From Tubulanus polymorphus (Eukaryota; Animalia; Nemertea), in the NCBI RefSeq assembly GCF_964204645.1, contig NC_134033.1, forward strand, positions 14,764,655-14,828,654: a stretch of 64,000 nt of DNA, given 5' to 3'. The notes beneath the pieces were generated by a model. It searched no databases and was not told the origin of the DNA. It saw only the letters and a list, made by a program, of their open reading frames with translations. Below are positions 34,811 to 63,095 of the stretch, piece after piece (positions within the stretch are counted from its first letter, which is position 1; each line of letters opens with the position of its first letter). The translations under genes and the position numbers were made by a program.

Positions 34811-37800
34811 TCAGTCCGATTGTTGCACGTCGAAATCCGATTCGGGCACGGCCGGCGTTTTAGCCACTTCGAAAAACACCCTGAAACGAGAAACAAACCG
34901 ACGATAAATAATAACCGGCCGACGTTGAAAATTCATGTAAAGGTTTTCAACATCTAACAGGCTTTCGGTGACCATTGTTGAAACATTAATGTAGTAGTAG
35001 TAGTGCGTTGAAGATGGCATCAACTAATGACTAATTTAGGACGCAATCAAAACGTGGTAATACACTTCAAGCAGGGTTCATAGTCTCCATGACCCATCCT
35101 CCCTCTGCAGGGACTCGAACCTGATGGCATCGCTACACTCAGCCACGGCACGAACCCCTGCATCAGTAGACCAGGTGCGCAGGTACATGCGGGGGAGGAT
35201 GCCATGACCAGTCTCATTCCACGACTTTCAAGCACCTTTTTGACCCCAATTCAATGACCCGATTCGTCGATCAAATAGACAATAATAGTTCTTTATTAAC
35301 TGACTTCGACTATTAAATGGGTTAACGGTAAAAATCCCCCTACTTGGTGGAAGTGACTTCTACCACGGAACCTTGTTATAACAACCTCAGATACACGTAC
35401 ATGTATACGAATCTAAAAATTTGTCCAAAACCGGAAAATTTCAATCATTTCATACCAGATATAACGAACTATCAGTTATGACTAACATATCTCTCGGATT
35501 GGCCATAACCGGGTGGCCACTTCCTAGCCTTTTACAAATCCCCTGAGTTGAAAATGGGCGTATCAAAGATTTCACCCGGTCCTGGCAGTGCGGTTGTCTC
35601 CAGAGAGATCTCACTCTACCACCCTAGTGTAGCCATCAGATGCTAAGGTTCCCGGTGAAATTTTAAAGTTATGCGTGCGCATTTTATCTCACTTACTTAT
35701 GAGAGTATTTCGTCTTGATTGTTTGCACGTTTTTGAACGGCGGGACGGCTAGCATTCGATTGAGTTTTTTCGCGAGTGGCATCAGTTGCCGTTCCGTGAA
35801 ACCGGTGTAAAACACGAGCGTCTGTGACTGAAAATAGAACGACGACGGAACATCCGTTTTAGAAAATTGCTCGTCGAAGATTCGAGTCGAAACATTAACA
35901 CTGGCAGTTTTACTTCAATTGTGGTTTACCAAATATATTCGTCAACAGAATTAGTGATGTATCTCAGAAAAACTGAAATACGCGTGCTTTCATTTTTTTA
36001 CAAGCATTATGTAGACTTTTAAGTTCCTGACTGGTAGATCTTCGTTTCTGTTCATAACCTTCCTTAGTAACATCTATATTTCTTAACTACTGGGCAGAGT
36101 TTTATAGACTGGTATCATCTTTAACCCGGGGCTGACTCAATTGAAAATCAATTGAGTTAGCCCCCGGGTTAGACATAATACCAGTCTAAAAAGCTCCAGG
36201 GGGCCAGTTCCATAATGAGGGCTTAGACTTAAGACCAGTCTAAGACCAACTTAGTTCTATAACCGATCAAACAACTTAAGTTCAGGCTTAAGATTTAAGA
36301 CCACTTTTGGTCTTAAGTCTTCACTATGGAACCGGCCCCTGATTATTAGGTTTCTTTCTCTGATGATGAAGTTTGTCAACGTTTTTTCATTCATCCCTGT
36401 TCCGAGGAAAACTATGACTCTACTCAGGATGATTTGAAATTAACATACACCGGTAAATCCGATCTATAGAACTGATTGTCCTAATTCGTAAAACATCATT
36501 TTACGCTTGCATTAGTCACATCGGTGACATATCATAATAAATTGAAAACAATCCGAGTGCAGGTTCTACTCACCCAGGCTCCTGATTTCTTCATTTTGAA
36601 AGCGAGCAGCAAACAAGCGGCCGCCAGTTCCGAGTCGGTGTAAATCAGGTAGTTATAATCCATCTGAGAATATTCGAGAATGTACCGAGCCATCGTTAAC
36701 AGTTCCATCGACGATTTACAACACTGGAAAAAATTGTTTTTTAAAGATTTGATGCAACTAGCTAGAGAAGCAAACTTTGGAATAATTGGAACTTTAGTAC
36801 TTCGATGCACTTGCTATTACTGTTTGTATTGAAGGTTTTGAGATTTTTCAGAAAAGGAAAATATTTCATAAGCCAGGGTTCTTACAGGTTTCCCAATTAC
36901 ATTTTCAATAGTTTTTCCATACTCAGATTATAAACTTCCTATGCCCCTAAGTTATACATTGCCAAACTAGAACAGGCAATTGTCAATCAAAGCAAATAAG
37001 TACCAATTATCAGTACCATCGACGAAGGTGTTTCCCATGGAAACGTCCTGGGGATATGAGAAAAACATCTCAAATTCCTTGTCTCTTCCCTGATCTGTGA
37101 AAACCCTGGTGTCGGACAAGTTAAACGTACCTTCGAGAAACGCCGCAAGAATCTGTACGACGAAGGAAGCCCGATGTCGAAACACATCGTGCGTAAAATG
37201 TGCTGTTCCATGCGTATGATCTGTTCACGGTTGTACGCGTCGTCGCATATATACAGAAAATCATCGAGCAACGGCGGACACCTTTCCTGAAATCGGTAGC
37301 GAAAAAACAATCATATTTCATCGACCACAAATCATTGAGAGAAGTAACGCACTCCCCGAGATGACCCCCCCGAAACATTTAGAAATCAACGGCACAATAG
37401 TCCTCTTATCAACTTCAATAACCATCATTTCTTAAAAAACAATATTCCAAGTATATATCTGAAGCCTGCATACCTCAAGACATTTTTAATTGAAAATGAA
37501 CTACAAACACCAGACATTAGACATTTTATCAGCACACTTTCTAAAACTGATCATCCACACTGTGTTCAGAACTTTACTGGAGATATTTTTAATTGAAAAT
37601 GAACGACAAACACCAGACATTAGACATTTATTTTTATCAGCACACTTTCAAAAACTGATCTCTTCACTTCACATGTGTCCAGGACTTCAGTCAAGAAACT
37701 TTCAATAGAAAATTAACTACTAACACATTAGACATTTTATCAGCTCACTTCCGAAAACTGATCGTTCAAATTTTGCATGCGTTCACGACTTCAATCGCCT

Positions 37801-40800
37801 GAGACAATCTTTATCGATAATGAACTACTCACACCAGACATTGATTCAGAAATCAGCAAAACAGATCAATCTTAAATTATACTAGCGCCCAAATTACTGA
37901 CGCGCCATTGCTACACTCAGATAAGGGGTGATATCGAGGAACTTACGTCGAATTTACACGAGATAAACAAAGCGGCCGTCGCGACCAGTTGCAGTTTCTC
38001 ACGTCTGACGACGACCTTCGATAAATACAGATCGAACAGACGGATCGCCAGATACAACGTCTCGTGGTTCAACTCGAAGTTCTCTTGTATTTCGACGAGC
38101 CAATCGACGACGATCGCGCGCATCTGAATCGTGATCTCGGTTTGTCGTTCTAAATACGGCGACACCATGAACTTCATCTGAAAATGTAGTTTGAGGAAAA
38201 ATTCTAAACTTGATGAATCACTAAACAAGTTTTCCCTAAGTGAATCTGCAGCAGGTTAATGGAGAAATTCCCAGAATCTGCAGCAGGGGAATGGAGAAAT
38301 TCCCAGAGTGAATCTGCTGCAGGGGAATAGAGAAATTCCTAGAATCTGCAGCAGGGGAATGGAGGAATTCCCTGAGTGAATCTGCTGCAGGTGAATGGAG
38401 AAATTCCCACAGTGAATCAACTGCAGGTGAATGGAGAAATTCCCCAAGTGAATCTACTGCTGGGGAATGGAGAAATTCCCCGAGTGAATCTGCTGCAGGT
38501 GAATGGAGAAATTCCCCGTGTGAATCAACTGCAGGTGAATGGAGAAATTCCCCAAGTGAATCTACTGCTGGGGAATGGAGAAATTCCCCGAGTGAATCCG
38601 CTGCAGGCGAATGGAGAAATTCCCCAAGTGAATCTGCAGCAGGGGAATGGAGAAATTCCCCGAGTGAATCTGCCGCAGGCGAATGGAGGAATTCCCCAAG
38701 TGAATCTGCAGCAGGGGAATGGAGAAATTCCCCGAGTGAATCTGCCGCAGGCGAATGGAGGGATTCCCCGAGTGAATCTGCAGCAGGGGAATGGAGAAAT
38801 TCCCCGAGTGAATCTGCCGCAGGCGAATGGAGGAATTCCCCAAGTGAATCTGCAGCAGGGGAATGGAGAAATTCCCCAAGTGAATCTGCTGCAGGGGAAT
38901 GGAGAAATTCCCAGAGTGGATCTGCTACAGGTGAATGGAGAGATTCCCAGAGTGAATCTGCTGCAGGTGAATGGAGAGATTCCATGAGTGAATCTGCTGC
39001 AGGTGAATGGAGGAATTTCCTGAGTAAATCTGCTGCAGGGGAATGGAGTGAATCCTGATTTTCTGTGATCTGTACGAACCCTGTATCCATCATCCACTCA
39101 CCTCTCTTTCTTTGTAATATTCAAATATATCGTAAGCGTACTCTCCTACATGGAATAAATCCGACATATTCTCTTTGTCCACGTCGACAATTCCCTAAAA
39201 AAGAAGCAAAATACTGCAGATAACTTAACGCCCGGAGGACCTGACACACTTCAGCGCAACCTCTGATCAGTAACACTCCATAATTTTCAATAATTAGAAG
39301 CCTACCATTTTGTTTTTGTATTGTTCTAGGCTGGATTTTGTATCGTCGCTGTTCTCATTAGTTTTCACATCCTTTTCATTTTCTGACCTAAAAGGCGAAA
39401 ATCAAATCAACATCATTGAAAAGTTAAAACGACTATTTTTAGCCCGATTTCGCACACTTGTGTATACTTTAACTAAACTAAACTAAATATGAATAAGTAA
39501 GCCCCAGGTTAAAGGTTAAATACCAGTCTATACAACTGGCGCCAGTGTTGCTCTTAAAAAAGTTTTTAGGCTTTTATGATTTTTTCAACTTAAACACAGG
39601 GACTAACTGAATTGAATTCGAATAAGTTAGCCCCGGGTTAAAGTTAAAAGTAAAGCACCAGGCTTGGTTTCATAGATGTGGAAGAAAAATAGTCCCTGGG
39701 AACATTTTAAAATTTGTCTGTTATAACCATGGTTTCTCATTGTAACTATGGTGGTTGTCACCCAGATTGAGGATTTACCCCTAGGGATAACTTTGATACT
39801 CGGTCTATGAATCCAGGATCCAGTTCCACAGTAGTGAGTTTTGAGTTGAAGTTAGTTCATTTTCAATTAGTTAACTAGTCAGCCCCGGGTTAAAACACCA
39901 GTCTATAGAAATGGGCCCAGGGTTGTTGGATGATTTCCAACAAGTCAAGGGCTCGAAGAATTCACTCACTCGATATTTTTAACGGGTGAATTTTCACAGC
40001 TATTCGGCGCTTGTATGACGTGCGCGAGCGTATCGGTGAACTGTTCACACGTGTAATAACTATCCTCCTGAGACGACTTCGACTCCTGCGAACTCTGACT
40101 AGACGACTCTTGAGACGACTGCGACGAACTCCTCTGCGACAAACTGATCTCGTTATTTTCATCTTTGTTTTCGACTTGATTTCGCGACGCGGATTTCGTC
40201 GTTTTTTTCGTCGCCGTCTTCCGCGATGCTTTCAGCGTCGTTTTTTTAGCGGGCGCCGTCGCGTTGTTGCGCGATAGTTTATTCTCCCTCTAGAAGTAGA
40301 CGAAAATCGACAGAAAAATGAATTCGAGTTTATGAGTTTAGAGTCACCGTTCAAATACAGGGTCGGTGGCCACTTTTATTCTAATTGCTTTTTTCACTAA
40401 GAATTCAATCAATTAACACGTAGTCAAATACTTAAGACATAAATGGAAACTGTTGGATTATACACACAAAATTAGCAATCTCAAATTTCTCCGAGTGATT
40501 TCCAGGTAAGTGGCCACCCAGAAATACGTTCTTAAAACGCTGCTTGTAGTAGTCGAACCGCACTTAAGCACTTTTTTCTGAATCCAGAATTCGAAGACAA
40601 TTTCCAGGAATACAACAGACTTTTATTTTACTTGCTTGGTAGTAGGCCCAGTGGAATTTGCACATTAGAGAAATTAGACAGCAATTATACCAGTCAGTAG
40701 AAATTTCCTTTGATATTGAGTTAAAAAAGTACTTTTCAGCAATATCGAGATTTCACCGCAATAGTAACACTAATCTGTAAGCCTGTTTTTCCGAAAGTTA

Positions 40801-43314: not shown

Positions 43315-44335
43315 AAGCATGTAATATAATCACTAATGGTAACAATTATTATCATTCATCCCTATCAATAGTATATTGAAAAAAGTTATCGAATGTTTGA
43401 ACCACACAAAAACAGAAAATATTTCGACAGAAAAGATTTTTAGGTTTACAGAAAGCAAAGATCTTTATGAAATCAGTAAAAGATCCCCAAAATGTACGCT
43501 ATTCTCAAACTTATATCGCAAATCTTAAAACGGAATCGAATCATTTGATTTAAGAAAGCGAATATCTTTTTGTAATTATCCAACCATCCCCAATACAATA
43601 TTCTCAAACGTATTTCTCAAATTCAGTTAAATTAATGAGTGTAGCTGATATATGTAACGTTTGTTAAACGTCAAAATCTTTTTCCAATATTTCGAAAACC
43701 AGACTTTAATTTAGCAGACCAAACATAATGGGAATTTGTTTCCAAGCGTTTTTCGAATAATGTGTCATTGCCGCTATTATATTTTTGCATTACTAAAAAC
43801 AGCACTACCTTGTCCGATGTTTTCATTATGAAGTTTGATGAACTCTGCTTGAACAACGCAGAGCTTTGGGGTACGCGAAAGTATTCGATTTATGCTCGGA
43901 GGCAAATTTCTAGCTAAGTGAACATTTTTCCCACCTTACCACGCATTAAAGGCATTCAATTCGATCCGCTGGTACATTACAAAAACATCACCGGGCAAGC
44001 GAAAATATACCGCGCATTCATGCATATATGTTCTTGTTATTTCAAGTAATGAACGAAATTATGGGCGTCTAAAGCAAACAGCGTCGCATTTAAAATCTCA
44101 TTTATTTGCGAAGTCGTGGCTAAAAGACAAACTGTTCATTCAAATTCACAATTATCAGAGTTTATGAATTAAATCATGCGTAGAAATACGTATTGCCAGC
44201 GTTTCCCACATAATAATATAGGCATCGGCGAATTTCTGAGTGACGCTTTTCGTTTGCAAAAATGCCCTGCCAGAAAGTTTCTGAGTTTAGTTGGTTTGAT
44301 ACCACTTGGAAGGGATGAGTCGGTCGCGGGACATC

Positions 44336-47300
44336 ATGAAACGTATCGGCGGCTTTTCTTGCATGCTTGTGTTTCTTATGTGCTTAACATTGGCGGTAGG
44401 TTAAATATTCTATGAATCTATGCTTTCATCGGACAAATTTTTTGTTCATAAGACTCATTCGATCGAGTTGACCATACGACGATAGACCATTTTAATGAAG
44501 GGGAGACAAAATCATAGACAATCATTCTGAATAATTTCTAATACAGTTTTAATAGCCATCGCCAGGTGGTTTCATTTATTTGGCCGTTATGCGAGGTTCT
44601 ATATGAGAGGATGCTCAGGGATGAGAGATTGCAACTCACCATCGCATTGGAATTTTACCGTCCAACCAGAAGACTTGGGTCGCCCTCCGTGTGACGCTAA
44701 ATGTATATGTTATGAAACTTCGTTATTTTAACGAAAATATTTTAGATTTTTCTTTTGTTTTCTTCAATGGATGATATCGAAAATCGTCATTATTCTTCAA
44801 TGCGTATCTTTTCATTGCAATTAACAGGACGCCGAACACGCTCGTCGGAAAAGGGCAACGCCGGATGTTCAGGTCACCAGTCACAGACGAATCACTTGGA
44901 GTGTTAGCAATGGTAAATACTCCGGTATGCAAATCCTCACCGTCCTTTGCGGATCGAGAATGGGGGGGGGGGTCTCATAAAAATTAAGATGATCGTGTTG
45001 TATAGAATGTTAACGCCTTTTATAATATACTGATTCAAGTTATGGTATCTTCTATTTCTTAATACAGAACATTTCGCCGGCTCCATCGCACGAGCCTTAA
45101 GACAATTTCCGGCGTGCATTTCTTTCGAAAAGCACCCTAGACCTACAGCAAACCTTAACTACATCTTCGAAAAATCGTAAGTACTTTTTCTCACATGAAG
45201 ATGAAACGTATATCAGCAATGTCCACGGCTGCACATTTTGTCGGTGGCTAAACATGAAAATATACATATATTTCATTCGGATTTTTGATACAGAACAGCT
45301 ATGCTCGGTGAGATTAAAACGATATGAATAATAATGATTCTTTAACAAAACGTAGGATTTCTGTTTAGGCGTGGTGATTTCACTGTGTACACCAAAGGCG
45401 TCGGACTCAAAAAAATTAATTCTGATATTTACCAGCAGGTTGTCTTCATCAAAAGTAGGCATGATTTAAAATATGTAAGTTCAACATCCTTTTAAAATCT
45501 GTTCTAAGATGATTTTGATAATGGATCACGATGCACCGGCTTTTGAAGCTTTAAGGCAAGGGGCATATGTAAAAGTACATCACCGAATGGAGTAAAAATG
45601 CTTTTTTTAACTACAAATCTAATTTGCATCATCTACATTGAAGTAAAAAGTTGCTAGAAAGCATTATATACAGGTATAATGTATTAAAGCATGGACGTAT
45701 AAACTTTCTAGTTTATACGTCCATGATTAAAGTATACAGACCTATGTAAGTTTGTGTATATTTTCATGTTTCATCTGTGCCCTAGTTACTTGAGAACAAT
45801 ATAAAATTGGTGACGCAACAAACTCTACGAGCCCTCGGATTCTATTACGAACACCAGCGACCGGACTCGAACAGATACGTGAAATATAACTTCTCAATGA
45901 GAAAACCACCATATTATGATATGGACACACGCGTGGCTTATGATGTGTCTTCAATTATGCATATTGATGAGATGGTAGGTGCAACTATGGACGTATAAAC
46001 TAGACTAGTTTATACGTCCATGGTGCAACGTGGTTGTGTCACGTGAAGTCGACCAGGCCGATCAAAAGGCAGTAATGCATTCATGTTCTTCAGAGATACA
46101 GCAATGCGCACCTGCGCATGGGAATTAAATATAATTATGTTGGAGGCCTCTGAATCAGCTTCGTAGATTCACAGTTAAAAAGATTCTTGAACGAGTTCAG
46201 TGGGCGTTTCTCCAACTCAAATGTTTAGCTGTAGTTCGTTGGTCATATTTACAATAAACCTGACACTTAAACCTTTCTGTCCTATAATCCGAATTGTTTT
46301 CGTATGACTTGTGTCAGTGGTCAGTCACCAATCACTGTAATCTATCCTCGAATACCCGAAGAAAGATTTCCAGACGCGTTTCCTTCATCACTCACGTACC
46401 GATCGTATTTCAAAATTTCAGTCATACGTAAACGAAGAAGGTGTGGTGAAAAAGCAGAACCGACCAATTATGCAACTACGTCCAACACTGTTGTTCAATA
46501 ACAGGCGACGTCACTACGGTTACATAGGATTTCGGCAACCGGGCGACAGTCTTCTAAGCTTCCGCGACAACAGAACGGTGACCAATAAGCTGTGTCGAAG
46601 GATGGACAATTCGATCGCAGGTATTTATGGAATATTGGCTTAATTCGTATATTTTTCAAATATTCGGTTTACACGTTTCATTAGCTTGGTGAATCGTCCG
46701 CAGTTGTTCCCAGTCGAACCGGTGAGTTTTACTTTAGTCCTTTGATGATAAAGCAGCAATCAATATTAGTTACCTAGGGACTTGGGTTCGACCTTTGGTG
46801 GATTAACTATTCGAACAGCTTCATACATATTCACACCCGAACTACGGCTAGGCCTTACTATCATTCGTACTTTTTAATGATGATAACGTTTTTTCTTCGT
46901 AATATAATTCCTTTGTGATAACATTCAATAATTCAACTACTTATTAACCACTTCGTTGACATTTGTGACGTATATTCACAAAAAAAATAGTCAAAAATAA
47001 TTACCTTCTCTCGCTCATCTCACCATACATGACGTATGTTTACGTAAATGAAGATACATTTCAATTCCAGTGGTCCATTCCTCTTTCGTCCAAATTGCTA
47101 TATGTATTAGATTTAGATTTTGTGCTGAGCTGTAGAAAATGAAAATTTCATTCATGTATTTGTACGTTCATTTGAAGGAACGACACCAGTCACTGCGCAA
47201 TGCCCATCACCGATTGAACCGTGTGCAAACGGAGGCTATGTTGACAAAAGCGTAAACGGGAATTTATGTCGATGCGTCTGTCCTCCGAGATTCGAGGGAA

Positions 47301-49925
47301 TGCGATGCGAAGAGTATCATCCTGGTACGACTTTGCCGATGGAATGCATTATTTTCTATCACGAATCAGCGTCGAAGAAACTCTTTTGAGCAATGGGATA
47401 CCGGCAATGCTAATGTGATCAGTGACAATTCCACCAGGTGTCGCTACTGGCACTGGGTTACCGCGCATCGATTCCTTTTACATTTCGATAAAATTCGAAA
47501 AAGCCTTTCTGATTCTGTGAAATCAATATCATACTCTGAGTGATAAAGTGAATCTTATATCTATTCAATGAATGGTTTGATGATTTTCGGATTTGAAGCT
47601 TAAAAATCAAGTCATCGAAAATGAACTGATTTTCACAATAAATGACCCAGTGCTTTTGTTAGCGCATCTAGTGAGTGCGGGTATCCCATTGCTTTCCATG
47701 CGATCAGCTCATTTGTGTTTCTCTGCACTATTTTCAGGTGAATGCGGTGGAGTTATTTCAGTAACCAATGAGATTGTTGCACACACTTCACGTGGTTATC
47801 CCTATGGTTGGAAGAGATACGAACGGTGTTATCACATCCTTCGCGTAAGTCGAGAGAAAATGTAAAACACGATTAAAGACCTACTTGAGTAGCGTGTTGT
47901 CCTATTGCATCAATTTATTGTAAAGCATTTATTTGACTTCAGCTAAGGCCAAGGGTTGGATGGTAATTTTTCTTGTACTCGTTTTCTAGGCACCAGCTGG
48001 TAGGCGGGTGTTGTTCCGTGTCGTAGACTTACAGTGCACCCAAGCGGAGTTGTACCTGCTCATTTTCGGGACCGATGTCAGTCTTCGCAAGTAAGTCTAT
48101 AAGTATAGGATTCCGCTGGCATAAACAGACTTGGGGTTGTCATTAAGCTCGAAATTATGGAATACTCAAGTTATTCGGAAAAAGATAGATGTAAGATCTG
48201 TATCCAATTGAACAGTTTCCATCTATGTTTAACGTATTTGACTGTGATAATTGATTGGATTCTTAACAGATCTAGTCAGGTGAACAACTGCTCAAATACA
48301 AAATGCCATTTTGAAAGTGTCATCTGCAAATGCCGTAGGGATGGAGATAATTGATAAAGAACAATATAATGATTCGAAGGCTAATGTTTTTGGCAAAACG
48401 AAGTCACAAATAAAATCATCTAGACGGATGAGAAAGTCTTTAAGATCTGAGAAAGATCAGAACTCGCCATTGAAGTACGGACGAGGAACTACAATCATTT
48501 TGTTTCTAAACTTCAGTATTACTTGTGACGACAATTTGATCGAAGAATTACTGGGCGTTTGGTTCCTTTCTGACGGGTCTTACATGGAAGTGAACTACGC
48601 GACGAAAAACTCCAGCGGGCGCGGTTTTAAGTTGGAATACACCGAGGCCTGTCGAACTAACACATCACACAACAACAACAAGACGTCGATGTTTGAAACA
48701 ATTGATTCCGAAGAGGAATCCCCGTGGGGTGAGTGGTTATACATGTTTTCGAGCGGCACTGTATACATAACAGCAAAACAGCAAACACAGAAATTGACAA
48801 TGTATAGGCTAAACAAAAATGATACCTTGTTTCTCCGCAGCGGCCGGGTAATTTTTGTAAAATATGATAAAATTTATAAACAGTTCATTTCTATAGCGGC
48901 CGGGTCTGTTATGGTAAAATTGATCACGATTTAAAAAAAAGTAATGTATAGGGTAGATAGGCGGCCGGCCGGGTCAACATGTAAGCTCAGTAGAGCGGAG
49001 AAACAAGGTATCAATTTTTTTTAGTCATATTTGTAGTTTTTTCAGTTTCAAGGAAGTTGTCCTTCCTAAAGCCCGACGCACGCGATACATTGGCAAACAC
49101 GGAAGCAGGAGGCAGACATATGTATCTTACTGCGTCGGTGCATTTAGGAAAAACGAGACGAAACAATTCTTCAAACATGTTTGATCCTGTGTGTGTCTGT
49201 TTATCTCTTGTTACCATGTCGTGTGCGTTGGGCTTAAAAGAATGTTTTTGGTTAATCTGTTGAAGCTTTCTTGAGGCAGTAGATATCGTTTTTGAAATGG
49301 GAAATCTAAATCCTCAGTTCTGAGTACATCAAATAACGATCGAGCTAGACGTCTAGGTATATTTGTCTTTTCTGATTAAAATAATGATTTTTATTTCACA
49401 GTTTCGTGTAAGGATTTGAATAGTGAAACAGTCACAACGCCCGCTACTACCGATGCGCGTCCCAAATGTCGATTCTGCGATTCAAGGTCGGATAAATATT
49501 GTCTAGTAACGCAAACCAAGGATATGGATGAAATTCAATGTGAAGACCATGAAATGTGTGGTGTACGTATTATATATAGATATACGAAGTATTAATTTGT
49601 AACTTTGACGTCACGGAGTCCTTTGATGAAACATACGTGGTTTTATTTTTAGATCGAGGCAGTGGTTTCCCCTTGCGGAGACGTACGGCAGATGAAACGA
49701 GGCTGCTATTCGACGAACCTTTGCCAGCAATCTCACTGCAAAATGGACGCCGACGGTGCCCATATCTGCGTACAGTGCTGCCACCATTCGACCGATTGTA
49801 AAACGCTAGGCATAACCGATTTGAAATTTGATGTCGTAAACATCCACAGGAATTCCGCAAAGCTTCTGAATGCGTGTTACACGGCGAATGCATTATTGCT
49901 GATGGTTTATCTATCAGTAAACTGA
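44336..49925 (+). CDS. Inactive astacin-like + EGF + CUB + Ly6/uPAR-like protein with signal peptide and probable GPI signal, ~590 aa
   Basis: Phase-consistent exons 44336-44395, 44828-44924 (or -44912), 45068-45176, 45369-45474, 45786-45974, 46422-46620, 46704-46721 (tentative micro-exon), 47178-47324, 47738-47844, 47990-48090, 48517-48728, 49402-49562, 49653-49925. Motifs: RRKRA; CISF; LRALGFYYEHQRPD; YDVSSIMH; LSFRD; CANGGY..CRCVCPPRFEGMRCE; CGG..SRGYP..C..APAGRRV..SGRGFKLEY; CRFC..KRGC..CVQCC..DC; hydrophobic tail. Confidence 0.82.
45690..45725. mobile_element. 36-bp palindromic mini-element with 7-bp TSD
   Basis: attaaag|catggacgtataaactttctagtttatacgtccatg|attaaag. Confidence 0.85.
45986..46022. 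mobile_element. 37-bp palindromic mini-element with 7-bp TSD
   Basis: gtgcaac|tatggacgtataaactagactagtttatacgtccatg|gtgcaac. Confidence 0.85.
47389..47693. mobile_element. Intronic MITE-like element
   Basis: TIR agcaatgggatacc / ggtatcccattgct; inner inverted pair gcactgggt / acccagtgc. Confidence 0.6.
48807..49026. mobile_element. ~220-bp MITE, copy 1
   Basis: Near-identical to 52031-52251; TIR core gataccttgtttctccgc / gcggagaaacaaggtatc. Confidence 0.85.
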
Positions 49926-50454
49926 GTGTACATTTTATCTCTAGCGATCTGCAGCCTGGAACAGCACCATCCCTCCAGACATGCCTAATGTCTGGTAATT
50001 GTCAATTAAAAACTCCTTAGTTGAAGTATTGAGCACACATGAAGTGCGGACGATCAGTTTTATTTTCAACTGCGCTGATTTATCCATTTATGTCTAAGGT
50101 AAAGATCAAATATCGGGCGAATCGTTGTCTGAGGGGATGATTCTAAGCTGCAGATTGAGACCTACCTACTTAAACTGTCCAAGGAAAATGAGGACAATGG
50201 TAAAACTATTTATTTAGCAAGTGCCCAGCTGTTTGTAATTTTATTATGTGATATTATAGTTCTACGTAGTTATAATTATCGTATTTTCACAGTTAAAATA
50301 TGAAGGATCCATTCCGCAGCTGTGTTGAGGTAAAAAATTGAACAAAAATGTTACTCAGTTTTTGAAGCAAACTAATTTCAAACTCCTAGCCCAAATCTCA
50401 CTCACAACCGCGGAATCTGGTCCAGATGTATGGGATAGTAGGCTACAATACATT

Positions 50455-50661
50455 TCACATACATGGGGGATTCTGGTCACAACTTTTCGGGTCATTGCAA
50501 CATTCTTGAAATTGAACGGAACATTGTTTCTCGCAGGCGACACAAAACGGAGTTAAATTGGTGTTCGCGCATTCATCACCAGCCGACGGCGTCGGAGCGA
50601 AGATCGCTATGCTCAGCAATGTCGCAACTACAAGAAAACCACTCATGAATTTCGGCGTCAT
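50455..50661 (-). CDS. Secreted 8-Cys peptide precursor, divergent paralog (68 aa)
   Basis: Signal peptide + DECANTNLTPFCVACEKQCSVQFQECCNDPKSCDQNPPCM; same Cys spacing as the 60046/63777 copies; ATG directly after acceptor tttttgtag; candidate upstream donor gtaagg near 51589. Confidence 0.88.
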   Translation of the reverse strand: MTPKFMSGFLVVATLLSIAIFAPTPSAGDECANTNLTPFCVACEKQCSVQFQECCNDPKSCDQNPPCM

Positions 50662-50985
50662 CTACAAAAATATATGATAACCATTCATGAAATGAGTGAC
50701 AGCGTTTTACAAATCATCAATTGACTGAGCCCGACTCGTGGTTCGTAGTTTTTCGTTTCCCCTAGCCAAAGAACTCTGCCACCACCTGAATTCGAACCCA
50801 TGAACCCTACTGAAAAAATGATTGTGGAATCATTTATAGAAGCAATATCCATGGTGGTTATATTTTTTTATACAAAACATGATTTTCATCTCGACAACCA
50901 TGAACTTTTGCGGATTTGGACGCAGTTTTAGTATTTTCTAATTGAATCTATTATGAATAAAGAAAAGTCTTGATTTTATTTTTTC

Positions 50986-51567
50986 ATGGGGCCGGTTCCA
51001 CAGTTAACTCTGAGTTAGAATCTGTTCATTTTCAATGAGTTTATTCTGAGTCAAATCTTACGTAAAGGCCCCCGCACACGAGCCGAAAACTGCGCTGCGC
51101 CATTTTCGTACGCAATTTTCGGCTCGTATGCGGGGGCCTCAACTCACAACACTGTGGATTTGGATCCTGGCTCGGCGCGCATCAGATTCGCTCGAAGAAA
51201 CGATGGTAGATTAGAACAAGAAATCTCATGCGAGACCATTTCATCGTTCATATTTGTAACCTGGGGCCGGTTGCATAGTCATGGCTTAGACTTAAGACCA
51301 GTCTAAGACCAACTTAGTTCTATATAGCCAATCTAACAACTTAAGACTGGTCTTAAGATTTAAGACCACTTTTGGACTTAAGTCACGACTATGCAACTGA
51401 CCCCAGGGCTGGGTTTCATAGATGTGGAAGAAAATAGTCCCTGGGAACATTTTGAAATTTGTCAGTTATAACCATGGTTTCTCATTATTACTATGGTGGT
51501 TGTCACCCAAATTGAGGATTTACCCCTAGGGATTACTTTGATACCAGTCTATGAAACCGGGCCCAGG
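50986..51567. mobile_element. Cluster of four MITEs (one nested) in the presumed 5'UTR intron of the peptide gene
   Basis: 50987-51168 element interrupted by hairpin aggcccccgcacacgagccgaaaa..ttttcggctcgtatgcgggggcct (51066-51139); then 51263-51404 and 51406-51565, both with second copies in cyclin B3 introns. Confidence 0.8.
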
Positions 51568-52030
51568 AAAATTGAATTTCATCACCTTACCTTTACTTGA
51601 TTGAATACAGTAAATGTTGAAACACAAAGAACTATTAAATCCACCTAAAATCTCACCATTCTTTATACTGTTCGTTCCTTTTACCCTGATACTTGTAAAA
51701 CACTTCATTTCTTAGGTCTAGGAGATTAAACATATTTTATTGACGAATTTATTATTTGTTTTCTTTCATATTCTTCGATATTCTAAGTCGAACGCTTAAA
51801 TGAGTTTGTACTTCATCGAGTTCATGCTTTGATCTACTCGATATAGATTGATATTCGCAAAGGAAAACCGATATCAGTGCGAACATTTTCTCTCAAGTGC
51901 TACGTGAGAGTCGATATGAAAGTATCCATTGTAATAATCCTGCTACTGAATTGATTGCTAAAGAAATGGAAAACCATGTGTTTCAGATCGACGAATAAAG
52001 TTTATACGAAGAAATCGATTCGAACGTTTA

Positions 52031-52251
52031 GGCTAAACAAAAATGATACCTTGTTTCTCCGCAGCGGCCGGGTCATTTTTGTAAAATATGATAAAAATTT
52101 ATAAACAGTTCATTTCTATAGCGGCCGGGTCTGTTATGGTGAAATTGATCACGATTTTTAAAAAAGTAATGTATAGGGTAGATAGGCGGCCGGCCGGGTC
52201 AAAATTTAAGCTCAACAGAGCGGAGAAACAAGGTATCAATTTTTTTTGGCC
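52031..52251. mobile_element. ~220-bp PIF/Harbinger-like MITE, copy 2
   Basis: TTA|GGCTAAACAAAAATGATACC...GGTATCAATTTTTTTTGGCC|TTA: TIRs with 3-bp TTA duplication. Confidence 0.88.
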
Positions 52252-52998
52252 TTATGGTTTTGCGAGAAAGAACGACTCGCATGAGAACGTTTGGAATCAC
52301 GTTCTCTAATGTTTATCGCTAAAACGGAAATGCATTCACAAATCGTAACTCGCCCAATCGATGTACCATCCTGAAAGTATCAATCCGCGGCCTGATGGAA
52401 CCACCCTTAAGATGACCAGCAGCTGAAATAACCCCCTTCTGAAATTCGCTGATGTAAAGTGGCGAGGATATCAACACTAAATTTGCTTTTATTCGAGGTT
52501 TGTTTTAGTCTTTCATTACATGAAAAGCCTGCAACCAGACCGGGAATAATCGCCTATGACGTTTTATTTCCTATATGTCGATGAAATTCCGCCCTGAAAC
52601 TGAAACGATTCATGTATAGAGTTCCGTTTGCAGTCTTAACGAGACAATTATCACAATTGGGTTTTTGGTAGTTTTTAAAGAGGCCGATGTCAAGAGGCAA
52701 CCTACTACCAGTCGCCACTGCGCGCAAATGGAAATCATTCTGAACTGCCGGGCTTTAAAAAGATGAAATCATCCCAGTCATGTGATACATATCGTACATA
52801 AATATCGTCAATTTAATTCAATAATCGAGTAGTATTTTTCCAATCTTTAGTTGAAATACTGTTCAAAGATATTTAAATGATTATGTAATCTACGTAGTTT
52901 ATTGATTCGAAGAAAAAAGGACACCGTATATATCCGAATCTTCATGAATATAAAACCCAGCAGTCACGTAATCTAGAAATCTAGACTATCGACATCAG

Positions 52999-54138
52999 AT
53001 GGATGATTACACAAATTCAGCAAACCGGCATAACAAAACCAACTTAAAGAATGCGTTCGCAGCAGCCTCCGACATCTTTCATAATATCACTTATAAAGAC
53101 GACGCATTGGTATCGTTGTGTCAAAGGATACAAGCCCGTCCTGCAACACGAAAAAACAAATACAGCGTTTTAATGTACTTGGTTTGGTATCTACCAGCGT
53201 CTCTATTGGGTATAATATTCAACGCATTCACGCTGTTGGTTCTAAAACAATTCAAATCCGATAGTTATTTTCTCATCAAAATTCTCGCTTTAAACGATCT
53301 GTTGTTTATGATCGCTACATTCGTTCTTTATCCGCTGAGAACTGTGTACGTGTACGCCGTATTGGGAGATATTCTGTTTCGTACAAATAATTGGAATTTA
53401 GGCTGGATTTTCATCTCGGTCGCCTTGCCGTTTTTCTACATGTTTCAGATGACACGTAACTGGTGCACTGTACTGCTAAGTCTCGAGCGGTTAATCGTCG
53501 TATTGTTTCCGATAAAATCTCGAATATTTCCCCTGAAGTCCATATCGCTATACGCGATGCTTTTCATATCGCTACTCAGCTTTTGCGGACATTTCGTTTT
53601 GTTTCTGCCCGAATATCCGCTTGGCTTTCTGAACTGCCCCGACTATTGGCCATATGTAACTATACGCAAGAAGTACCGATTCAAATATGGGATTATACAA
53701 TATAAATGGCGTTACGAGATTTCCGAACGTGATTTGTTTCTCTATCTTACCGTCATGTTTCCGATTTGCTTTTTAGTTTTCGTCAATTCCATTCTTATTT
53801 CGCTGACATTTTTCCGACACGTCTTTCGACATTCGGAGCTCGGCGTAGTAAACGACAAATCGGCGAGAAAAGAAATGAAAGTTTTGAGGATGGTTTTATC
53901 CGTAGTTCTGTTGTTCATCATCTGCGAAAGTATCGGTTTCGTCGATCGTCTGAAATACTTTGTCGCAATTCCTGCTCTTAGAAATTCAGGCATAAGGCTG
54001 ATAGCCTTAGGACTTTCTATCGTCGATTCTTCTGTAAACTTTTTCGTGTATTGCGTAACGAATGCAAGGTTCAGAAAGTCGGTTTTTGGTACATTCGCCT
54101 CGCCGCGTCAGGAACCTGAGCAAAAGAGGAAACCCTAA
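52999..54138 (+). CDS. Intronless rhodopsin-class orphan GPCR 'A' (FMRFamide-receptor-like), 379 aa
   Basis: GIIFN, LALND, TRNW..LSLERL, FIICES, DSSVNFFVY..NARFR; shares TRNW, ICE..DR and DSxxNF with the 42340 receptor. Confidence 0.92.
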   Translation: MDDYTNSANRHNKTNLKNAFAAASDIFHNITYKDDALVSLCQRIQARPATRKNKYSVLMYLVWYLPASLLGIIFNAFTLLVLKQFKSDSYFLIKILALNDLLFMIATFVLYPLRTVYVYAVLGDILFRTNNWNLGWIFISVALPFFYMFQMTRNWCTVLLSLERLIVVLFPIKSRIFPLKSISLYAMLFISLLSFCGHFVLFLPEYPLGFLNCPDYWPYVTIRKKYRFKYGIIQYKWRYEISERDLFLYLTVMFPICFLVFVNSILISLTFFRHVFRHSELGVVNDKSARKEMKVLRMVLSVVLLFIICESIGFVDRLKYFVAIPALRNSGIRLIALGLSIVDSSVNFFVYCVTNARFRKSVFGTFASPRQEPEQKRKP

Positions 54139-55454
54139 AATGAGCACAGCGCGCACGTAGTGACGACTTCGAAATATGACGCCCTTCATAGAAAACACAC
54201 TTCGTCTCTTTGTACGTGTCATGAACCACAACTGAAATAAGATCTACTCCCTAAATCAAACCAATATCAAAATATAATTCAAGGATATTGATATTTACCA
54301 AAGAAGTCAATTAAACTAGCTTTTGAGTGTTGGTTCTTGACCATCTCAACTTCAAAATTGTACCTGGTGGGAACTTAAGGTTAACGTTGAAAAGACCAAG
54401 ATTATCATTTTTAGAACAATGGGGTGTAGGAAGCTCAACGTTTTCGTGTGGGTTATCAAAATGTAGATGAAGAAGTTGATTATCAATATGATGTTATTAA
54501 GTTTAAACAAAATGAAGTTTCTTTGAAGGCAAAATAACTGTTAGTAAACAAGGCAAAATGCGCATAGATAAAGTCTGGTATTTGAGAATATATTCCCTAG
54601 ACCCACCATTAGATTACCAGTTTGAATAATTCGATCAGACGATCAATTTGGGAATAATGTTGAACAACGCAAAAATATGCTCTAATCGGCCACATGTTCT
54701 GTTAATTGATTATTGGTTTTAATTCAGAGTTCTCATAACATGTATATACACAACCGAAGACTCTTCAGATACAATTTATCCCTTACAATATTTTCTTTTG
54801 AATACCGTGTACCGATAACTGCGTACTCAAAGACAGATTGTGTAGCTCTCGAAAACCTGATCGTTGAGGATAAGAGCGCGTAGGAACAATAGCGTCATCA
54901 ATAGAAAACATCGTTGACGAAGAAAGCGTAGTACTTGTTTCAAGAGGGTAAGCGGGATATGATTATTATAGATACGAACGATTCACCAGGGATCAGTGGA
55001 AAGTTCCACAAGCTCCACTCTGCAGATAGACAATTAGTCCAGCAAAACAACCAGTTAAATAGAAGTAAGTTTTCTATTTATTATTTTTTTTATTAAAGCA
55101 TCTCCTGGGCATGTGTGTGTAAACATTAAAATGCACCCAGTAATATTCAACATAGAAAAATAATTCTTTTTTTTCATTACTAGTAAAGCTGCTTTCGAGG
55201 TTTATTCCGAGTTTGCTCGAAGTAAAATTCGAAAATGATATTTCAGTTGAAAAAGAAGTTTGCATATTTGCTAACAACGATGTCATCATTTTCCGATATG
55301 ATGGCAGCCTTGTTTCTCGATTCAGTCCAGACATAGAAATCCTAGGCTACCGATGCGTTGCATCGATCTGTAACTTGGAAATATTATTAATATAATACGA
55401 GTCGTTTTATGCATCGATATTTTCATTCATTTGTTCGCTTGTCCATCTTTGTAG

Positions 55455-55642
55455 ATGACGCCGAAATTCGCCAGTGCCTTCCTTGTAGTCGCGTTACTCG
55501 TTAGCGTGACCATTCTTGTTCCGACGCCAGTGACTTCTGATTGACCGGCTATTGCGTCAACTGCGAGAAACAATGTTCGGTTCAATTCGAGGAGTGTTGC
55601 AATGACCCGTCTAGTTGCATTCAGGTTCCTCCTTGTCTGTGA
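55455..55642 (+). pseudogene. Frameshifted copy of the 8-Cys peptide gene
   Basis: 26 nt (ggccgggcagcaatgtgccaatcgaa) of the 60046 copy replaced by ttct (net -22), removing Cys1 and giving VTSD* right after the signal peptide; rest nearly identical. Confidence 0.9.
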
Positions 55643-56338
55643 AATGCTATCGATATCGTGTATTCGCTGAATTCGATGAATTATCGATATTCTAAGCATA
55701 AACGTATGAATTAGTTCTACGTATAATAAAGAATTCACAAAAATAAAATGTCCTTCGTCGATCTTACGTATGTTGTTATGATCAGGGAGGTGGGTTCACT
55801 CCCACCTCTCTGTTATGATTGACCTTTCATCCGTATCAACATACATATATATTATGTATTTTTCGTATCAAGCATTACTGGAATTCTATGGTCCATCATC
55901 CAGGAGCGTCGTTCATCCTTGGGGTTCGAGGATTGTCAGTACGATTGAATATCAATAGTGAAATAAAATGATTACTCGCGAAAATGAAATAAAACAGAAT
56001 TGAAATGGAATTTTGCTCAGGGATATTCAATATAACGTGTAAACTACATTGTGGAAATAGCTTTTGATGTGACTTCTGTATTCCGAAAGTGGAATTCATT
56101 CAACTAGTATTGCCTGACTATCTCGGAGGCCTTTCTTTGCTTTTCCAACAATGGCTAGGCATACGTACACGGAGGAATCCTATGGAAATATACGAGTTGG
56201 CCTATATGTCTCTTGTTCCCACTTCCTTGAAATTACCGAGCTACGCCATGGCGCTTGATGCTGTGTAAGCGTTCTTGAAATCACAGAGCAGTGGAACAGA
56301 TGCAAGAATAGTTCGCACAGTTACCGGTACCTGTAATC

Positions 56339-57565
56339 ATGGATAACTTGACGAACTTCACTACTACAACTTTTCGGGTTTATACTGTTGCAGAAAGACC
56401 TCGAAATATCTTCTATCCATTCGCCAGATTTGTGATCCGTATGGATTACTACTATATAACGCCAATCATTCACTTGTTAGTCTATCCGCTGGGCTGCGCG
56501 TTTAACTGGTTTACTATCATTTTGTTGCTTAAGTGTCGTAGATTTCAATCGGTTCGTTACACATTTCCTTATCTAATGACTCTCGCTGTTTCAGATCAAC
56601 TCGTCGTATTGTTTGGTTTGTCCAGGTTTTCAGATTGGATGCGACACCTACTGAAAACGATTGGACTCGTTCCGAGGGACTGCGGTGGTCAAATGATTTA
56701 TCTTCATCAACGAAACAAATGTCCTATACTTTACAATTTTTGGTACTATTTTTCCTATCTTCCACAAAGATGGATCCCTATCTGTTTACTAAAATCACTA
56801 TTCTACAACCAGTCAATATCTATATCTAACTACATAGTTGTTGTAATTGCTATTGAAAGATTCGTTTCTATTCGTTTCCCTTTCTTTCACATGAGACATT
56901 TCACAGTCACCAAACGTAGAATAGCTGTATGTGTTGTGTTAATGGTTTCATATATAATTAATTGGCATGACACTATTAGATACAATGTCGTTATTGTCGT
57001 CAATAGAGGAGGATATAACGAAACATTAGGTTTCATTATGTGCAGCACCACCCAATGGATGCGGATTACCCGTTCTCAGGAAGGAATGATTAAAACTGTT
57101 CAATCATTCTTTCAGAACATACTGCCATCATTCTTGATCGCCATAGTATCAGTTCTAACTGCTGTATCACGTGCTAGGAAGTCGAGAGTCCTGATCGAAA
57201 CGAGAACAGATCGTAATAAATCTTCAGCCAGTAAAACTCTTGTTGTTGTAGTAATTATGTATATGTTACTGGTGTTACCAAATTCGATGTGTACCTTAAT
57301 GGGCAACTTCAACGAATTCATTATGGATACTCTCTGGATCAATCGGGGCATACCGCTTTACTCGGTTCTATCTCGCACCAGCTATTACGTTCTCAGAAAT
57401 TTCGCGTACGATTTAGGTCGATTATTTAAAATACTTCGTGAATCCGTATATTGCATTAATTTCTTTATATATTTGGGGACACTGGGCGTTTTCAGGAGAC
57501 AATTCACCACATTTTTCACCGGTAATTTTTGTTTAAAAAAATCGAAATCAAAACCGAATGAATGA
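56339..57565 (+). CDS. Intronless rhodopsin-class orphan GPCR 'B1', 408 aa
   Basis: PLGCAFN, LAVSD, IAIERFVSIRFP, MLLVLP, CINFFIYL..FRRQF; long ECL1 and ECL3. Confidence 0.92.
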   Translation: MDNLTNFTTTTFRVYTVAERPRNIFYPFARFVIRMDYYYITPIIHLLVYPLGCAFNWFTIILLLKCRRFQSVRYTFPYLMTLAVSDQLVVLFGLSRFSDWMRHLLKTIGLVPRDCGGQMIYLHQRNKCPILYNFWYYFSYLPQRWIPICLLKSLFYNQSISISNYIVVVIAIERFVSIRFPFFHMRHFTVTKRRIAVCVVLMVSYIINWHDTIRYNVVIVVNRGGYNETLGFIMCSTTQWMRITRSQEGMIKTVQSFFQNILPSFLIAIVSVLTAVSRARKSRVLIETRTDRNKSSASKTLVVVVIMYMLLVLPNSMCTLMGNFNEFIMDTLWINRGIPLYSVLSRTSYYVLRNFAYDLGRLFKILRESVYCINFFIYLGTLGVFRRQFTTFFTGNFCLKKSKSKPNE

Positions 57566-58086
57566 AGACGCGTTGAAGTGGAATACCCACAATTACGAAG
57601 AAATGATAAAGAGAGTAGTGACGTTTCAAATAAATTCTAGGGAAAGATTTTCAAAACAAAGAGAGAAGTTACGTTTCAATTGAATTCTAGGGAAAGATTT
57701 TCAAAACTAAGAGAGAAGTGACGTTTTTGACTTCATCAGTCATGGAGTTGGTCTATTTCTTGCCAATGGGTATGGTATCACATATATCTGTTTGACCAAT
57801 TCTATGGCTGTCAATCACCCACGTAAGTCTGGCTTTGCTTGACATTTGACGTCCATTATGACGTATGTGTGTCGTAGAGCTTACACGTAACGTGCATAGC
57901 AATATAGAGAATGCGTGCCTTGTATTAGAATCTATCGCACTACTTTGATCGAATGATCCTTGAATTCTTTTGACAAGTTTATACGCGACTAATTCTTTAA
58001 GCAGATTGTATCGGCACATTACTGCGTGACGTTTTAACCTTGTGTCTTATTGACTGAGCAATGCTTTTGGTTAAAACAAAGTTTTT

Positions 58087-58468
58087 TACAGTGCCGGTAC
58101 CGATATCCCGGTCAATCATATTCAGAGTGCCGATAAAACAAAATGGCGGCTTTTTCAACGGTAGAAAATTAGGGTTTAGTGTCTAGAGGGTGAGAAAAGG
58201 GTCCAGGGGTTAGGGCTAGGATTGGGATAAGGTTTAGGTTAAGGATTAGAGTTAGTCTTTGCATTATACTAGGATAAGGCTAAAACTATTTGAAAATGCT
58301 GGGATTCGTCAGGTGCCCCGATGGCTCAAGAGGATAGAACTCTGCGCTAGTATAACATATGCTTGCGTGTTCGAGTCCCAAATTTCGTGCTTTTGTTACT
58401 TAGATTTTCTAAGTACAGCGTTGCCGGCACTGTATAAATGATGATCGGAGTACTTTACCAGCACTGTA
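58087..58468. mobile_element. TA-flanked MITE with degenerate TTAGGG-like internal tract
   Basis: TA|CAGTGCCGGTA...TACCAGCACTG|TA; internal ttagggtttag..gggttagggctaggattggg..tttaggttaaggattagagttag. Confidence 0.7.

Positions 58469-62961: not shown

Positions 62962-63095
<134 letters not shown>

What the first reader, a model, noticed from the sequence alone, without database searches (positions are those of the whole stretch)
44336..49925. Hidden catalytically dead astacin fused to EGF, CUB and a Ly6/uPAR-like domain with a GPI-type tail
Reconstructed from 13 phase-consistent exons. The astacin motif HExxHxxGFxHExxRxDR reads QQTLRALGFYYEHQRPDS: all three Zn-binding His and the catalytic Glu are replaced, and the Met-turn SIMHY reads SIMHI. 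The reading frame, furin site RRKR, EGF and CUB domains are intact. Astacin-EGF-CUB is the known BP10/SpAN-type layout, but a C-terminal three-finger-like domain (CxxC...RGC...CxxCC-x4-C) plus hydrophobic tail on a dead protease is an architecture I do not recognise. Inference: a surface-tethered pseudoprotease acting as binding protein, decoy or co-receptor. It ends ~530 bp from the convergent 8-Cys peptide gene and lies between two related GPCRs.
Basis: partly seen in the sequence, partly recalled or inferred. Interest (0 to 1): 0.75.

Follow-up and report, generated by a model that had tools for sequence, protein, structure and literature searches.

The report
Dead astacin with Ly6-like membrane tether
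A gene from what is likely a ribbon worm has an open 13-exon reading frame for an astacin protease look-alike that has lost every zinc-binding residue and is followed by an EGF, a probable CUB and a likely Ly6-type domain, so it likely works as a non-cutting binding protein, predicted to be tethered to the cell surface; no RNA confirms the splicing yet.

Summary
Thirteen GT-AG exons at 44336-49925 give an open 588-aa frame: signal peptide, RRKR site, astacin domain (Pfam 25.5 bits from exon 5 alone), EGF, probable CUB, Ser/Thr linker, Cys-rich Ly6/uPAR-like domain and a GPI-like tail. Three zinc His, the catalytic Glu and the Met-turn Tyr are replaced. The second disulfide and the pro-domain aspartate switch are also gone, while structural residues remain, so catalysis was lost in a gene that stayed coding. 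The host is probably a palaeonemertean: a neighbouring GPCR is 65-70% identical to Tubulanus polymorphus proteins. A second haplotype keeps the frame (7 of 7 frameshifting indels intronic) but shows no amino-acid constraint (9 nonsynonymous, 2 synonymous codons). No orthologue and no RNA run were found. Dead astacins have precedent: a Strongyloides ratti protein has nearly the same broken motif. An astacin joined to a Ly6-type domain did not appear in my literature searches. CUB, Ly6 and GPI calls are leads, not significant matches. Best reading: a fast-evolving, surface-tethered pseudoprotease used for binding or recognition. A link to the neighbouring peptide and GPCR genes is unsupported. 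New variant of a known kind; interest 0.45.

The parts
44336..44395 (+). Exon 1: predicted signal peptide (aa 1-20)
   Evidence: ATG, hydrophobic core with Kyte-Doolittle peak 2.75; no predictor run
44828..44912 (+). Exon 2: 9-residue pro-segment ending in RRKR (furin-type site, 44843-44854), start of astacin domain
   Evidence: no aspartate-switch-like motif in any + frame of 43400-45070
45068..45176 (+). Exon 3: astacin backing helix and conserved C65 (CIxF)
   Evidence: alignment to 10 astacin domains
45369..45474 (+). Exon 4: astacin strand region; both Cys of the second disulfide absent
45786..45974 (+). Exon 5: dismantled zinc motif (45816-45869) and Met-turn SIMHI (45951-45965)
   Evidence: Pfam PF01400 25.5 bits; crayfish astacin E 0.0038
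46422..46620 (+). Exon 6: astacin C-terminal subdomain with C241; holds 7 of the 13 exonic differences between haplotypes
46704..46721 (+). Exon 7: 18-nt phase 1-1 micro-exon in the linker; dispensable for the frame, least certain exon
47178..47324 (+). Exon 8: EGF-like domain, six Cys; in-frame 3-nt indel in second haplotype
47738..47844 (+). Exon 9: probable CUB N-terminus (CGG...C)
   Evidence: weak match to first CUB of neuropilin-1, E 1.2
47990..48090 (+). Exon 10: probable CUB middle
   Evidence: position and Cys pattern
48517..48728 (+). Exon 11: probable CUB C-terminus (RGFxLxY) and Ser/Thr-rich linker
   Evidence: weak match to cubilin, E 1.3
48804..49026 (.). 223-bp high-copy insertion in intron 11, absent from the second haplotype
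   Evidence: joint; depth spike; second copy at 52023-52255
49402..49562 (+). Exon 12: linker end and first half of the Cys-rich Ly6/uPAR-like domain (CxxC at 49467)
49653..49925 (+). Exon 13: second half of the Ly6/uPAR-like domain, candidate GPI omega site N565 (49851), hydrophobic tail, stop
   Evidence: ESM Atlas neighbours in Ly6/uPAR/Quiver clusters 0.85-0.91
50455..50661 (-). Neighbour, not shown to be part of the same system: single-exon secreted 8-Cys peptide gene, 68 aa
42340..43314 (+). Neighbour: intronless rhodopsin-type GPCR, 65-70% identical to Tubulanus polymorphus proteins
52999..54138 (+). Neighbour: intronless rhodopsin-type GPCR, 27% identical to the upstream one

Best explanation
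This is likely one gene for a catalytically dead astacin that is predicted to be GPI-tethered to the cell surface and likely binds an extracellular partner instead of cutting it. Shown by the sequence: open frame, astacin ancestry, loss of all zinc ligands, of the general base, of the second disulfide and of the pro-domain latency motif, with the C65-C241 pair, family Glu142, Arg145, Asp147 and Met178 kept. Inferred: the signal peptide is removed, furin cuts at RRKR, and the tail is exchanged for a GPI anchor near N565. The Ly6-like domain would sit at the membrane, the Ser/Thr linker would act as a stalk, and CUB, EGF and the zinc-free astacin head would face outward as binding surfaces. Because the frame is kept while amino acids change freely and no orthologue is detectable, the partner is most likely a fast-changing surface (gamete coat, non-self or mucus proteins), as with the dead ADAMs and the Ly6 proteins of sperm and egg. 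That partner is a guess.
For: Open 588-aa frame over 12 GT-AG introns with strong splice sites. Astacin domain complete from about aa 30 to 241 with fold residues kept and catalytic residues lost. Matched loss of the latency motif, which PMC9848320 lists as a family feature. In a rough simulation 1% neutral drift leaves such a gene intact in 1.5% of runs and 2% drift in 0 of 2,000, so the deep divergence from active astacins happened in a coding gene. Second haplotype: 7 of 7 frameshifting indels listed are intronic (p about 0.06) and the only exonic indel is 3 nt. One gene: exon 11 has a strong phase-1 donor, exon 12 starts in phase 1, and the only signal-like leader in intron 11 has a weak donor and loses its ATG in the second haplotype. 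Exon 13 falls among Ly6/uPAR/Quiver clusters. Dead astacins exist elsewhere (P0017).
Against: No transcript supports any junction. Between haplotypes 9 codons change the residue and 2 do not, over 1,037 and 295 sites; exon SNP density (13 per 1,333 bp) equals intron density (35 per 3,322 bp); omega of 0.2 or less is rejected (p about 0.008), while 0.5 and 1 are not. Recent relaxation or a young pseudogene fits that as well. No orthologue was found although T. polymorphus proteins are in the searched collection. CUB matches are not significant (E 1.2-1.3; none in Pfam). The Ly6 hits with a family name score under 0.9, which the tool calls a lead only, and the terminal Asn is missing. The tail is only moderately hydrophobic (peak 1.97). 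Nothing here tests binding or tissue.
Confidence: 0.55

Rival explanations
1. A once-functional gene that has recently lost constraint (young pseudogene or dispensable paralogue). The frame survives only because little time has passed.
For: pN about 0.9-1.1% against pS 0.7% and intron 1.05% between two haplotypes; no orthologue found.
Against: Both haplotypes keep the frame as far as listed; 7 of 7 frameshifting indels are intronic; simulation gives about 1.5% survival at 1% drift; most changes are conservative and none touches a Cys among the 11 codons. Even if true, the dead architecture was functional until recently.
Confidence: 0.15
2. Two genes: a secreted dead astacin-EGF-CUB ending in exon 11 and a small GPI-anchored Ly6 gene with its own leader exon in intron 11.
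For: Both halves are common stand-alone layouts (PMC2824743 subgroup III; PMC11595613, mostly single-domain GPI proteins under 150 aa). Exon 11 reads on for 68 codons past its donor. A hydrophobic ATG leader exists at 49177 and one ATTAAA at 49375.
Against: The leader's best phase-1 donor scores 5, below all 12 model donors; the second haplotype changes that ATG and deletes 2 nt at 49204; the read-through of exon 11 runs into a polymorphic insertion; phases match across intron 11.
Confidence: 0.1
3. A co-receptor, decoy or carrier for the neighbouring 8-Cys peptides and their GPCRs.
For: The gene lies among four intronless GPCRs and four peptide gene copies. Ly6 domains occur on GPCR-like receptors in starfish (PMC11595613, passages).
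Against: The peptide-plus-GPCR unit duplicated in tandem without this gene; flanking GPCRs are 27% identical; adjacency in animal genomes seldom implies partnership (own knowledge).
Confidence: 0.08
4. A secreted or shed component of mucus or venom in which the dead head acts as scaffold or inhibitor sink, with no lasting membrane anchor.
For: Astacin-like transcripts and three-finger-domain proteins were reported among putative ribbon-worm toxins (PMC9132205, passages). The tail is only moderately hydrophobic.
Against: Small residues at N565-S566-A567, a spacer and a hydrophobic end with no cytosolic tail fit a GPI signal (pattern recalled).
Confidence: 0.12

Closest known systems
[quoted passage not shown]
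   Same: Signal peptide, pro-segment, astacin domain, one EGF, one probable CUB; family Glu, RxD and Met-turn Met kept.
   Different: No zinc ligands, no general base, no aspartate switch, one disulfide lost. An added Cys-rich Ly6-like domain and GPI-like tail stand where nematode subgroups IV and V carry ShK or TSP1. Ly6/uPAR is not among the domains named in the Figure 1 legend of PMC9848320.
Strongyloides ratti astacin-like protein P0017 (CEF69935.1 / XP_024509134.1)
   Same: All three zinc His replaced, short pro-segment with a basic cleavage site, second disulfide lost, EGF-like Cys cluster after the domain; 19 of 28 residues identical around the motif.
   Different: 387 aa, keeps the Glu at the general-base position, no Ly6-like domain or hydrophobic tail, no significant match outside the astacin core. 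It was the pick of 1.84 billion proteins, so parallel loss is the likelier reading; no tree was built.
ADAM pseudopeptidases (ADAM2, 11, 18, 22, 23, 32, unc-71; M12B)
   Same: Metzincin fold, first His often replaced by Gln, Met-turn kept, membrane-tethered, act by binding in sperm maturation and at synapses (PMC11266112, passages incl. Tables 1 and 2).
   Different: Other subfamily (astacin, not reprolysin), no disintegrin domain, predicted GPI instead of a transmembrane helix with cytosolic tail. The review's M12 pseudopeptidase list holds ADAMs only.
Ly6/uPAR three-finger proteins (Quiver/sleepless PF17064, LYPD6, Lystar, Bouncer/SPACA4)
   Same: CxxC start, RGC, CxxCC...C end, GPI-like tail; ESM Atlas neighbours.
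   Different: Here the domain would be the membrane-proximal module of a 588-aa mosaic protein. It has 13 Cys over aa 467-547, CC-x5-C spacing and no terminal Asn. None of 48 starfish Ly6 proteins described in PMC11595613 (passages) is said to carry a protease domain.
Membrane-bound astacins: meprins; ascidian sperm Tast proteins
   Same: Astacin domain held at the cell surface (PMC9848320; PMC9265791, passages).
   Different: Those are active enzymes with transmembrane anchors (type I or type II); this one is dead and predicted GPI-linked.

Membership tests
Astacin homologue (PF01400 domain) | Sequence match to the astacin catalytic domain | tested here: met
   Pfam 25.5 bits over cut-off 22.5; 50 bits against best shuffle 5.7; 13 of 16 phmmer hits carry PF01400
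Active astacin peptidase (M12A) | HExxHxxGxxH zinc motif | tested here: not met
   Q131, Q132, R135, Y141
Active astacin peptidase (M12A) | Family Glu followed by xxRxDRD | tested here: met
   E142, R145, D147 kept; the following RD reads SN
Active astacin peptidase (M12A) | SIMHY with Met-turn Met and zinc-binding Tyr | tested here: not met
   Met kept, Tyr replaced by Ile
Active astacin peptidase (M12A) | Pro-domain with zinc-blocking aspartate | tested here: not met
   9-residue pro-segment; no switch-like motif in any + frame of 43400-45070 (motif letters recalled, feature from PMC9848320)
Active astacin peptidase (M12A) | Two or three disulfides in the domain | tested here: not met
   Only C65 and C241 in the domain
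Active astacin peptidase (M12A) | Zinc binding and proteolysis | not testable with these tools
   needs recombinant protein
EGF-like domain | Six-Cys EGF pattern and sequence match | tested here: met
   C264-C299; Notch EGF repeats E 8.6e-5, factor VII EGF E 0.003; Pfam EGF_2 E 0.0055, below cut-off
CUB domain | Significant match to CUB over about 110 aa with four Cys | tested here: inconclusive
   Four Cys over aa 307-377; exon 9 matches the start of a neuropilin CUB (E 1.2), exon 11 a cubilin stretch (E 1.3); no Pfam hit on single exons; the three exons were not scanned as one domain
Ly6/uPAR (LU) domain | Match to LU families | tested here: inconclusive
   ESM Atlas: best hit 0.91 unnamed, named hits 0.85-0.89, 10 of 10 best named hits in one family or clan, which a third of shuffled proteins also get; no Pfam or PDB sequence hit for either half
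Ly6/uPAR (LU) domain | Terminal CC-x4-CN signature (recalled) | tested here: not met
   CC-x5-C followed by Lys
Ly6/uPAR (LU) domain | Three-finger fold | tested here: inconclusive
   Only exon 13 (half the domain) was folded; pLDDT 38, uninformative
GPI-anchored protein | Signal peptide, small-residue omega site, spacer, hydrophobic C-terminus | tested here: inconclusive
   Pattern present by eye and hydropathy; no GPI predictor available

The most novel reading that the evidence does not exclude
The first GPI-anchored pseudo-astacin and first astacin-Ly6 fusion: a ribbon-worm lineage rebuilt a protease into a fast-evolving cell-surface recognition receptor, with a zinc-free astacin cleft as ligand trap on a three-finger membrane base, combining in one chain the roles that dead ADAMs and Bouncer/SPACA4-type Ly6 proteins play in gamete recognition.
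Probability: 0.15. Interest if true: 0.7.

Novelty: new variant of a known kind. Interest (0 to 1): 0.45.

Why it matters
Dead metzincins with known jobs are nearly all ADAMs (PMC11266112), and the main astacin survey kept only sequences with an intact zinc motif (PMC9848320), so dead astacins are under-described. A surface-tethered one with a Ly6-type base would be a new domain combination and a tractable case of a protease turned into a binding protein. The near-identical broken motif in a threadworm protein suggests that astacins lose catalysis along a repeatable path. As it stands this is one lineage-restricted gene with no transcript, orthologue or ligand, which limits its weight.

Tried and rejected
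No whole genome is held for this window, so paralogues outside it were not searched; inside the window tblastn finds no second copy. No RNA holder was listed; the one run guessed to be RNA laid a single short contig piece in an intronic repeat; neither is evidence on expression. Word-based homologue searches with exon 5 and with four stacked Cys-rich exon pieces (14 candidates, none scored) found nothing; a simulation suggested the stacked query could score a 50%-identical orthologue (a similar but untrimmed set), but the word filter makes the blank weak. The phmmer search used exon 5 only; 3 of its 16 hits (P0007-P0009) carry no astacin domain and were dropped as repeat-driven; names were looked up for 2 of the 16. 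Metagenome scan with exon 13: 210 pattern matches, 0 confirmed. Folding exon 13 alone failed; no fold of the whole protein or whole Ly6-like domain was made. A stacked CUB profile against the PDB gave only a lectin at E 0.31. Local alignment of the EGF-CUB part to P0017 is within shuffle range (39 against mean 30.6, max 55). A scan for hidden in-frame cassette exons with strong sites found none. The Pro-Trp-Gly-Glu-Trp reading across the exon 11 donor resembles a TSP1 start but comes from the GTGAGT donor itself; rejected. Horizontal transfer from a nematode to explain the P0017 likeness: rejected, since the match is confined to the astacin core and the neighbourhood is nemertean-like. No complex prediction was run, because neighbourhood was the only reason and the domains are split over exons. 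Literature searches for an astacin-Ly6 or GPI-anchored dead astacin listed nothing that describes one; they cover open-access text only. One search returned 0 papers.


Full report
Observation. I rebuilt the model from coordinates. Thirteen exons between 44336 and 49925 give 1,767 nt and an open 588-aa frame; all 12 introns are GT-AG and phases match. Exons are 46% GC, introns 36%. On a crude consensus score the donors lie at the 91st-99th percentile of 350 GT sites in the span, and neither the donor nor the acceptor mean was reached in 100,000 random draws. That test is partly circular because the sites were chosen to keep the frame. The 18-nt exon 7 is the least certain. No transcript was available to check any junction.

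Source. The intronless GPCR upstream is 65-70% identical to three Tubulanus polymorphus proteins (3 of 5 hits), so the window most likely comes from a related palaeonemertean ribbon worm (inference).

Astacin domain. Exon 5 alone passes the Pfam Astacin cut-off and matches solved astacins (best E 0.0038). The model scores 50 bits on a profile of 10 astacin domains from the hits, against 5.7 for the best of 500 shuffles, and aligns from about aa 30 to 241. PMC9848320 (parts 1-2 of 12 read, plus passages; Figure 1 seen as legend only, supplements not read) defines the family by HEXXHXXGXXH, a following Glu-x-x-Arg-x-Asp-Arg-Asp, SIMHY, two or three disulfides and a pro-domain aspartate. Here the three His read Gln, Arg and Tyr, the general base reads Gln and the Met-turn Tyr reads Ile. 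The C65-C241 pair, Glu142, Arg145, Asp147 and Met178 are kept. Losing the latency device together with the zinc site is what one expects of a long-dead enzyme kept for its fold (inference).

Other domains. EGF is supported. CUB rests on position, four Cys and two non-significant matches at the right ends of the domain: neuropilin-1, E 1.2 and cubilin, E 1.3. The Cys-rich end has 13 Cys over aa 467-547 with CxxC, RGC and CxxCC-x5-C. Exon 13 falls among Ly6/uPAR and Quiver clusters in the ESM Atlas (best 0.91 unnamed; named 0.85-0.89), which the tool rates as a lead. Pfam and PDB sequence searches of either half gave no Ly6 hit, and the usual terminal Asn (recalled) is Lys. The tail has N565-S-A, a spacer and a hydrophobic end (peak hydropathy 1.97), a plausible GPI signal judged by eye.

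One gene or two. Exon 11 ends in a strong phase-1 donor and exon 12 starts in phase 1. Of 12 candidate leader exons in intron 11, those with a hydrophobic core have donors scoring 5 or less, below every model donor. In a second haplotype (run X1, DNA contigs, about 1% different) the nearer ATG is changed, 2 nt are deleted at 49204, and a 223-bp insertion in the intron is absent. One gene is favoured but not shown.

Selection. Of 9 indels listed over 44800-50750, 7 would shift a frame and all 7 are intronic (p about 0.06 for a 33% exon share); the only exonic one is 3 nt. A rough simulation leaves the gene intact in 1.5% of runs at 1% drift and in none of 2,000 at 2%. Against this, of 48 substitutions listed over 44336-49213, 13 are exonic (1,333 bp) and 35 intronic (3,322 bp), the same density, and 9 of 11 affected codons change the residue. 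Omega of 0.2 or less is rejected (p about 0.008); 0.5 and 1 are not. Seven of the 13 lie in exon 6, inside a locally divergent block. Ten further differences beyond 49213 were not shown, so exons 12-13 were not scored for substitutions. The pattern is frame kept, residues free. It fits a fast-evolving surface protein and also recent relaxation.

Relatives. Two word-based searches found nothing. phmmer with exon 5 against 1.84 billion representatives gave 16 hits, 13 with an astacin domain, none with a Ly6-clan Pfam family, and none matching the model outside aa 78-201. One hit, P0017, is a Strongyloides ratti astacin-like protein with all three His replaced, the same disulfide lost and 19 of 28 residues identical around the motif. 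Dead astacins therefore have precedent in databases. No orthologue was detected although T. polymorphus proteins are in the collection; only exon 5 was searched sensitively.

Neighbourhood. Four intronless GPCRs and four copies of a secreted 8-Cys peptide gene lie around the gene. The peptide-plus-GPCR unit is tandemly duplicated without it, and the two flanking GPCRs share 27% identity. Nothing ties the dead astacin to them except position.

Mechanism. I commit to a GPI-tethered, non-cutting binding protein (0.55). Shown: frame, ancestry, loss of catalytic residues. Inferred: splicing, furin cleavage, GPI anchoring, a membrane-proximal three-finger domain, a stalk, and binding by the outer domains. 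Guessed: a fast-changing partner such as a gamete coat or non-self surface, by analogy with dead ADAMs (PMC11266112, passages) and with Ly6 fertility factors (PMC8488580, search listing only). Rivals: recent loss of constraint (0.15), secreted mucus or venom component (0.12; PMC9132205, passages), two genes (0.10), partner of the neighbouring peptides or GPCRs (0.08).

Comparison and novelty. It works like a dead ADAM built on an astacin. It is an astacin homologue but not an active M12A peptidase. Astacin-EGF-CUB is the C. elegans subgroup III layout (PMC2824743, passages). Membrane-bound astacins are known as active, transmembrane enzymes (meprins, PMC9848320; ascidian Tast, PMC9265791, passages). 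Ly6/uPAR and GPI do not occur in the text of the astacin survey, which also filtered for intact zinc motifs. Starfish Ly6 proteins are mostly single-domain and none is described with a protease domain (PMC11595613, passages; its Table S1 not read). Ten keyword searches listed no astacin-Ly6 fusion; they cover open-access text only, and no architecture database was searched. Other papers seen as passages and not used: PMC10674772, PMC13409769, PMC10828956, PMC8191133. Verdict: real, new variant of a known kind, interest 0.45.

Noticed in passing
window 50455-50661 (-), 55455-55642 (+), 60046-60255 (+), 63777-63986 (+): Four copies of a single-exon secreted peptide gene, framework C-x8-C-x2-C-x3-C-x6-CC-x5-C-x5-C, mature parts about 71% identical; the 55455 copy is frameshifted after its signal peptide. 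No PDB sequence hit. AlphaFold gives a small helical fold (pLDDT 71) whose best structural matches are the centipede peptides k-Ssm1a and mu-SLPTX-Ssm6a at Z 3.0 and 2.9, rmsd about 3, 40 aligned, too weak to trust. Candidate toxin, pheromone or GPCR ligand family.
   Followed up: partly
window 53915-64000: Tandem unit of about 4.6 kb holding one peptide gene and one intronless rhodopsin-type GPCR (56339 and 60930, 84% identical), repeated two to three times at 86-94% DNA identity. A co-duplicated peptide-receptor pair may be a ligand-receptor cassette and may deserve its own look.
   Followed up: partly
window 48804-49026 and 52023-52255: 223-bp high-copy element, polymorphic for presence in intron 11, with a 94% identical second copy. 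Further high-copy repeats at about 51000-51530.
   Followed up: partly
window 46144-46776: Block with about 3% difference between haplotypes (20 substitutions in 633 bp) next to a stretch (44831-46143) with none listed; covers exon 6.
   Followed up: partly
window 20424-29641: Cluster of long Gly-rich repeat ORFs (GGVGGV, GGGHGG, GMGGMG and GGHQAAAM repeat types), possibly secreted structural or tube/mucus proteins.
   Followed up: no
window 12960-18106 (-): Multi-exon Dispatched/Patched-type sterol-sensing membrane protein, judged by eye from the ORF list (label recalled).
   Followed up: no
window 36532-40289 (-): Cyclin B3-like gene with a long 13-residue tandem repeat region at 38236-39120, judged by eye (label recalled).
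   Followed up: no
protein P0017: Strongyloides ratti astacin-like protein labelled as a metalloendopeptidase by its sources but lacking all three zinc His; suggests many annotated nematode astacins may be dead.
   Followed up: partly
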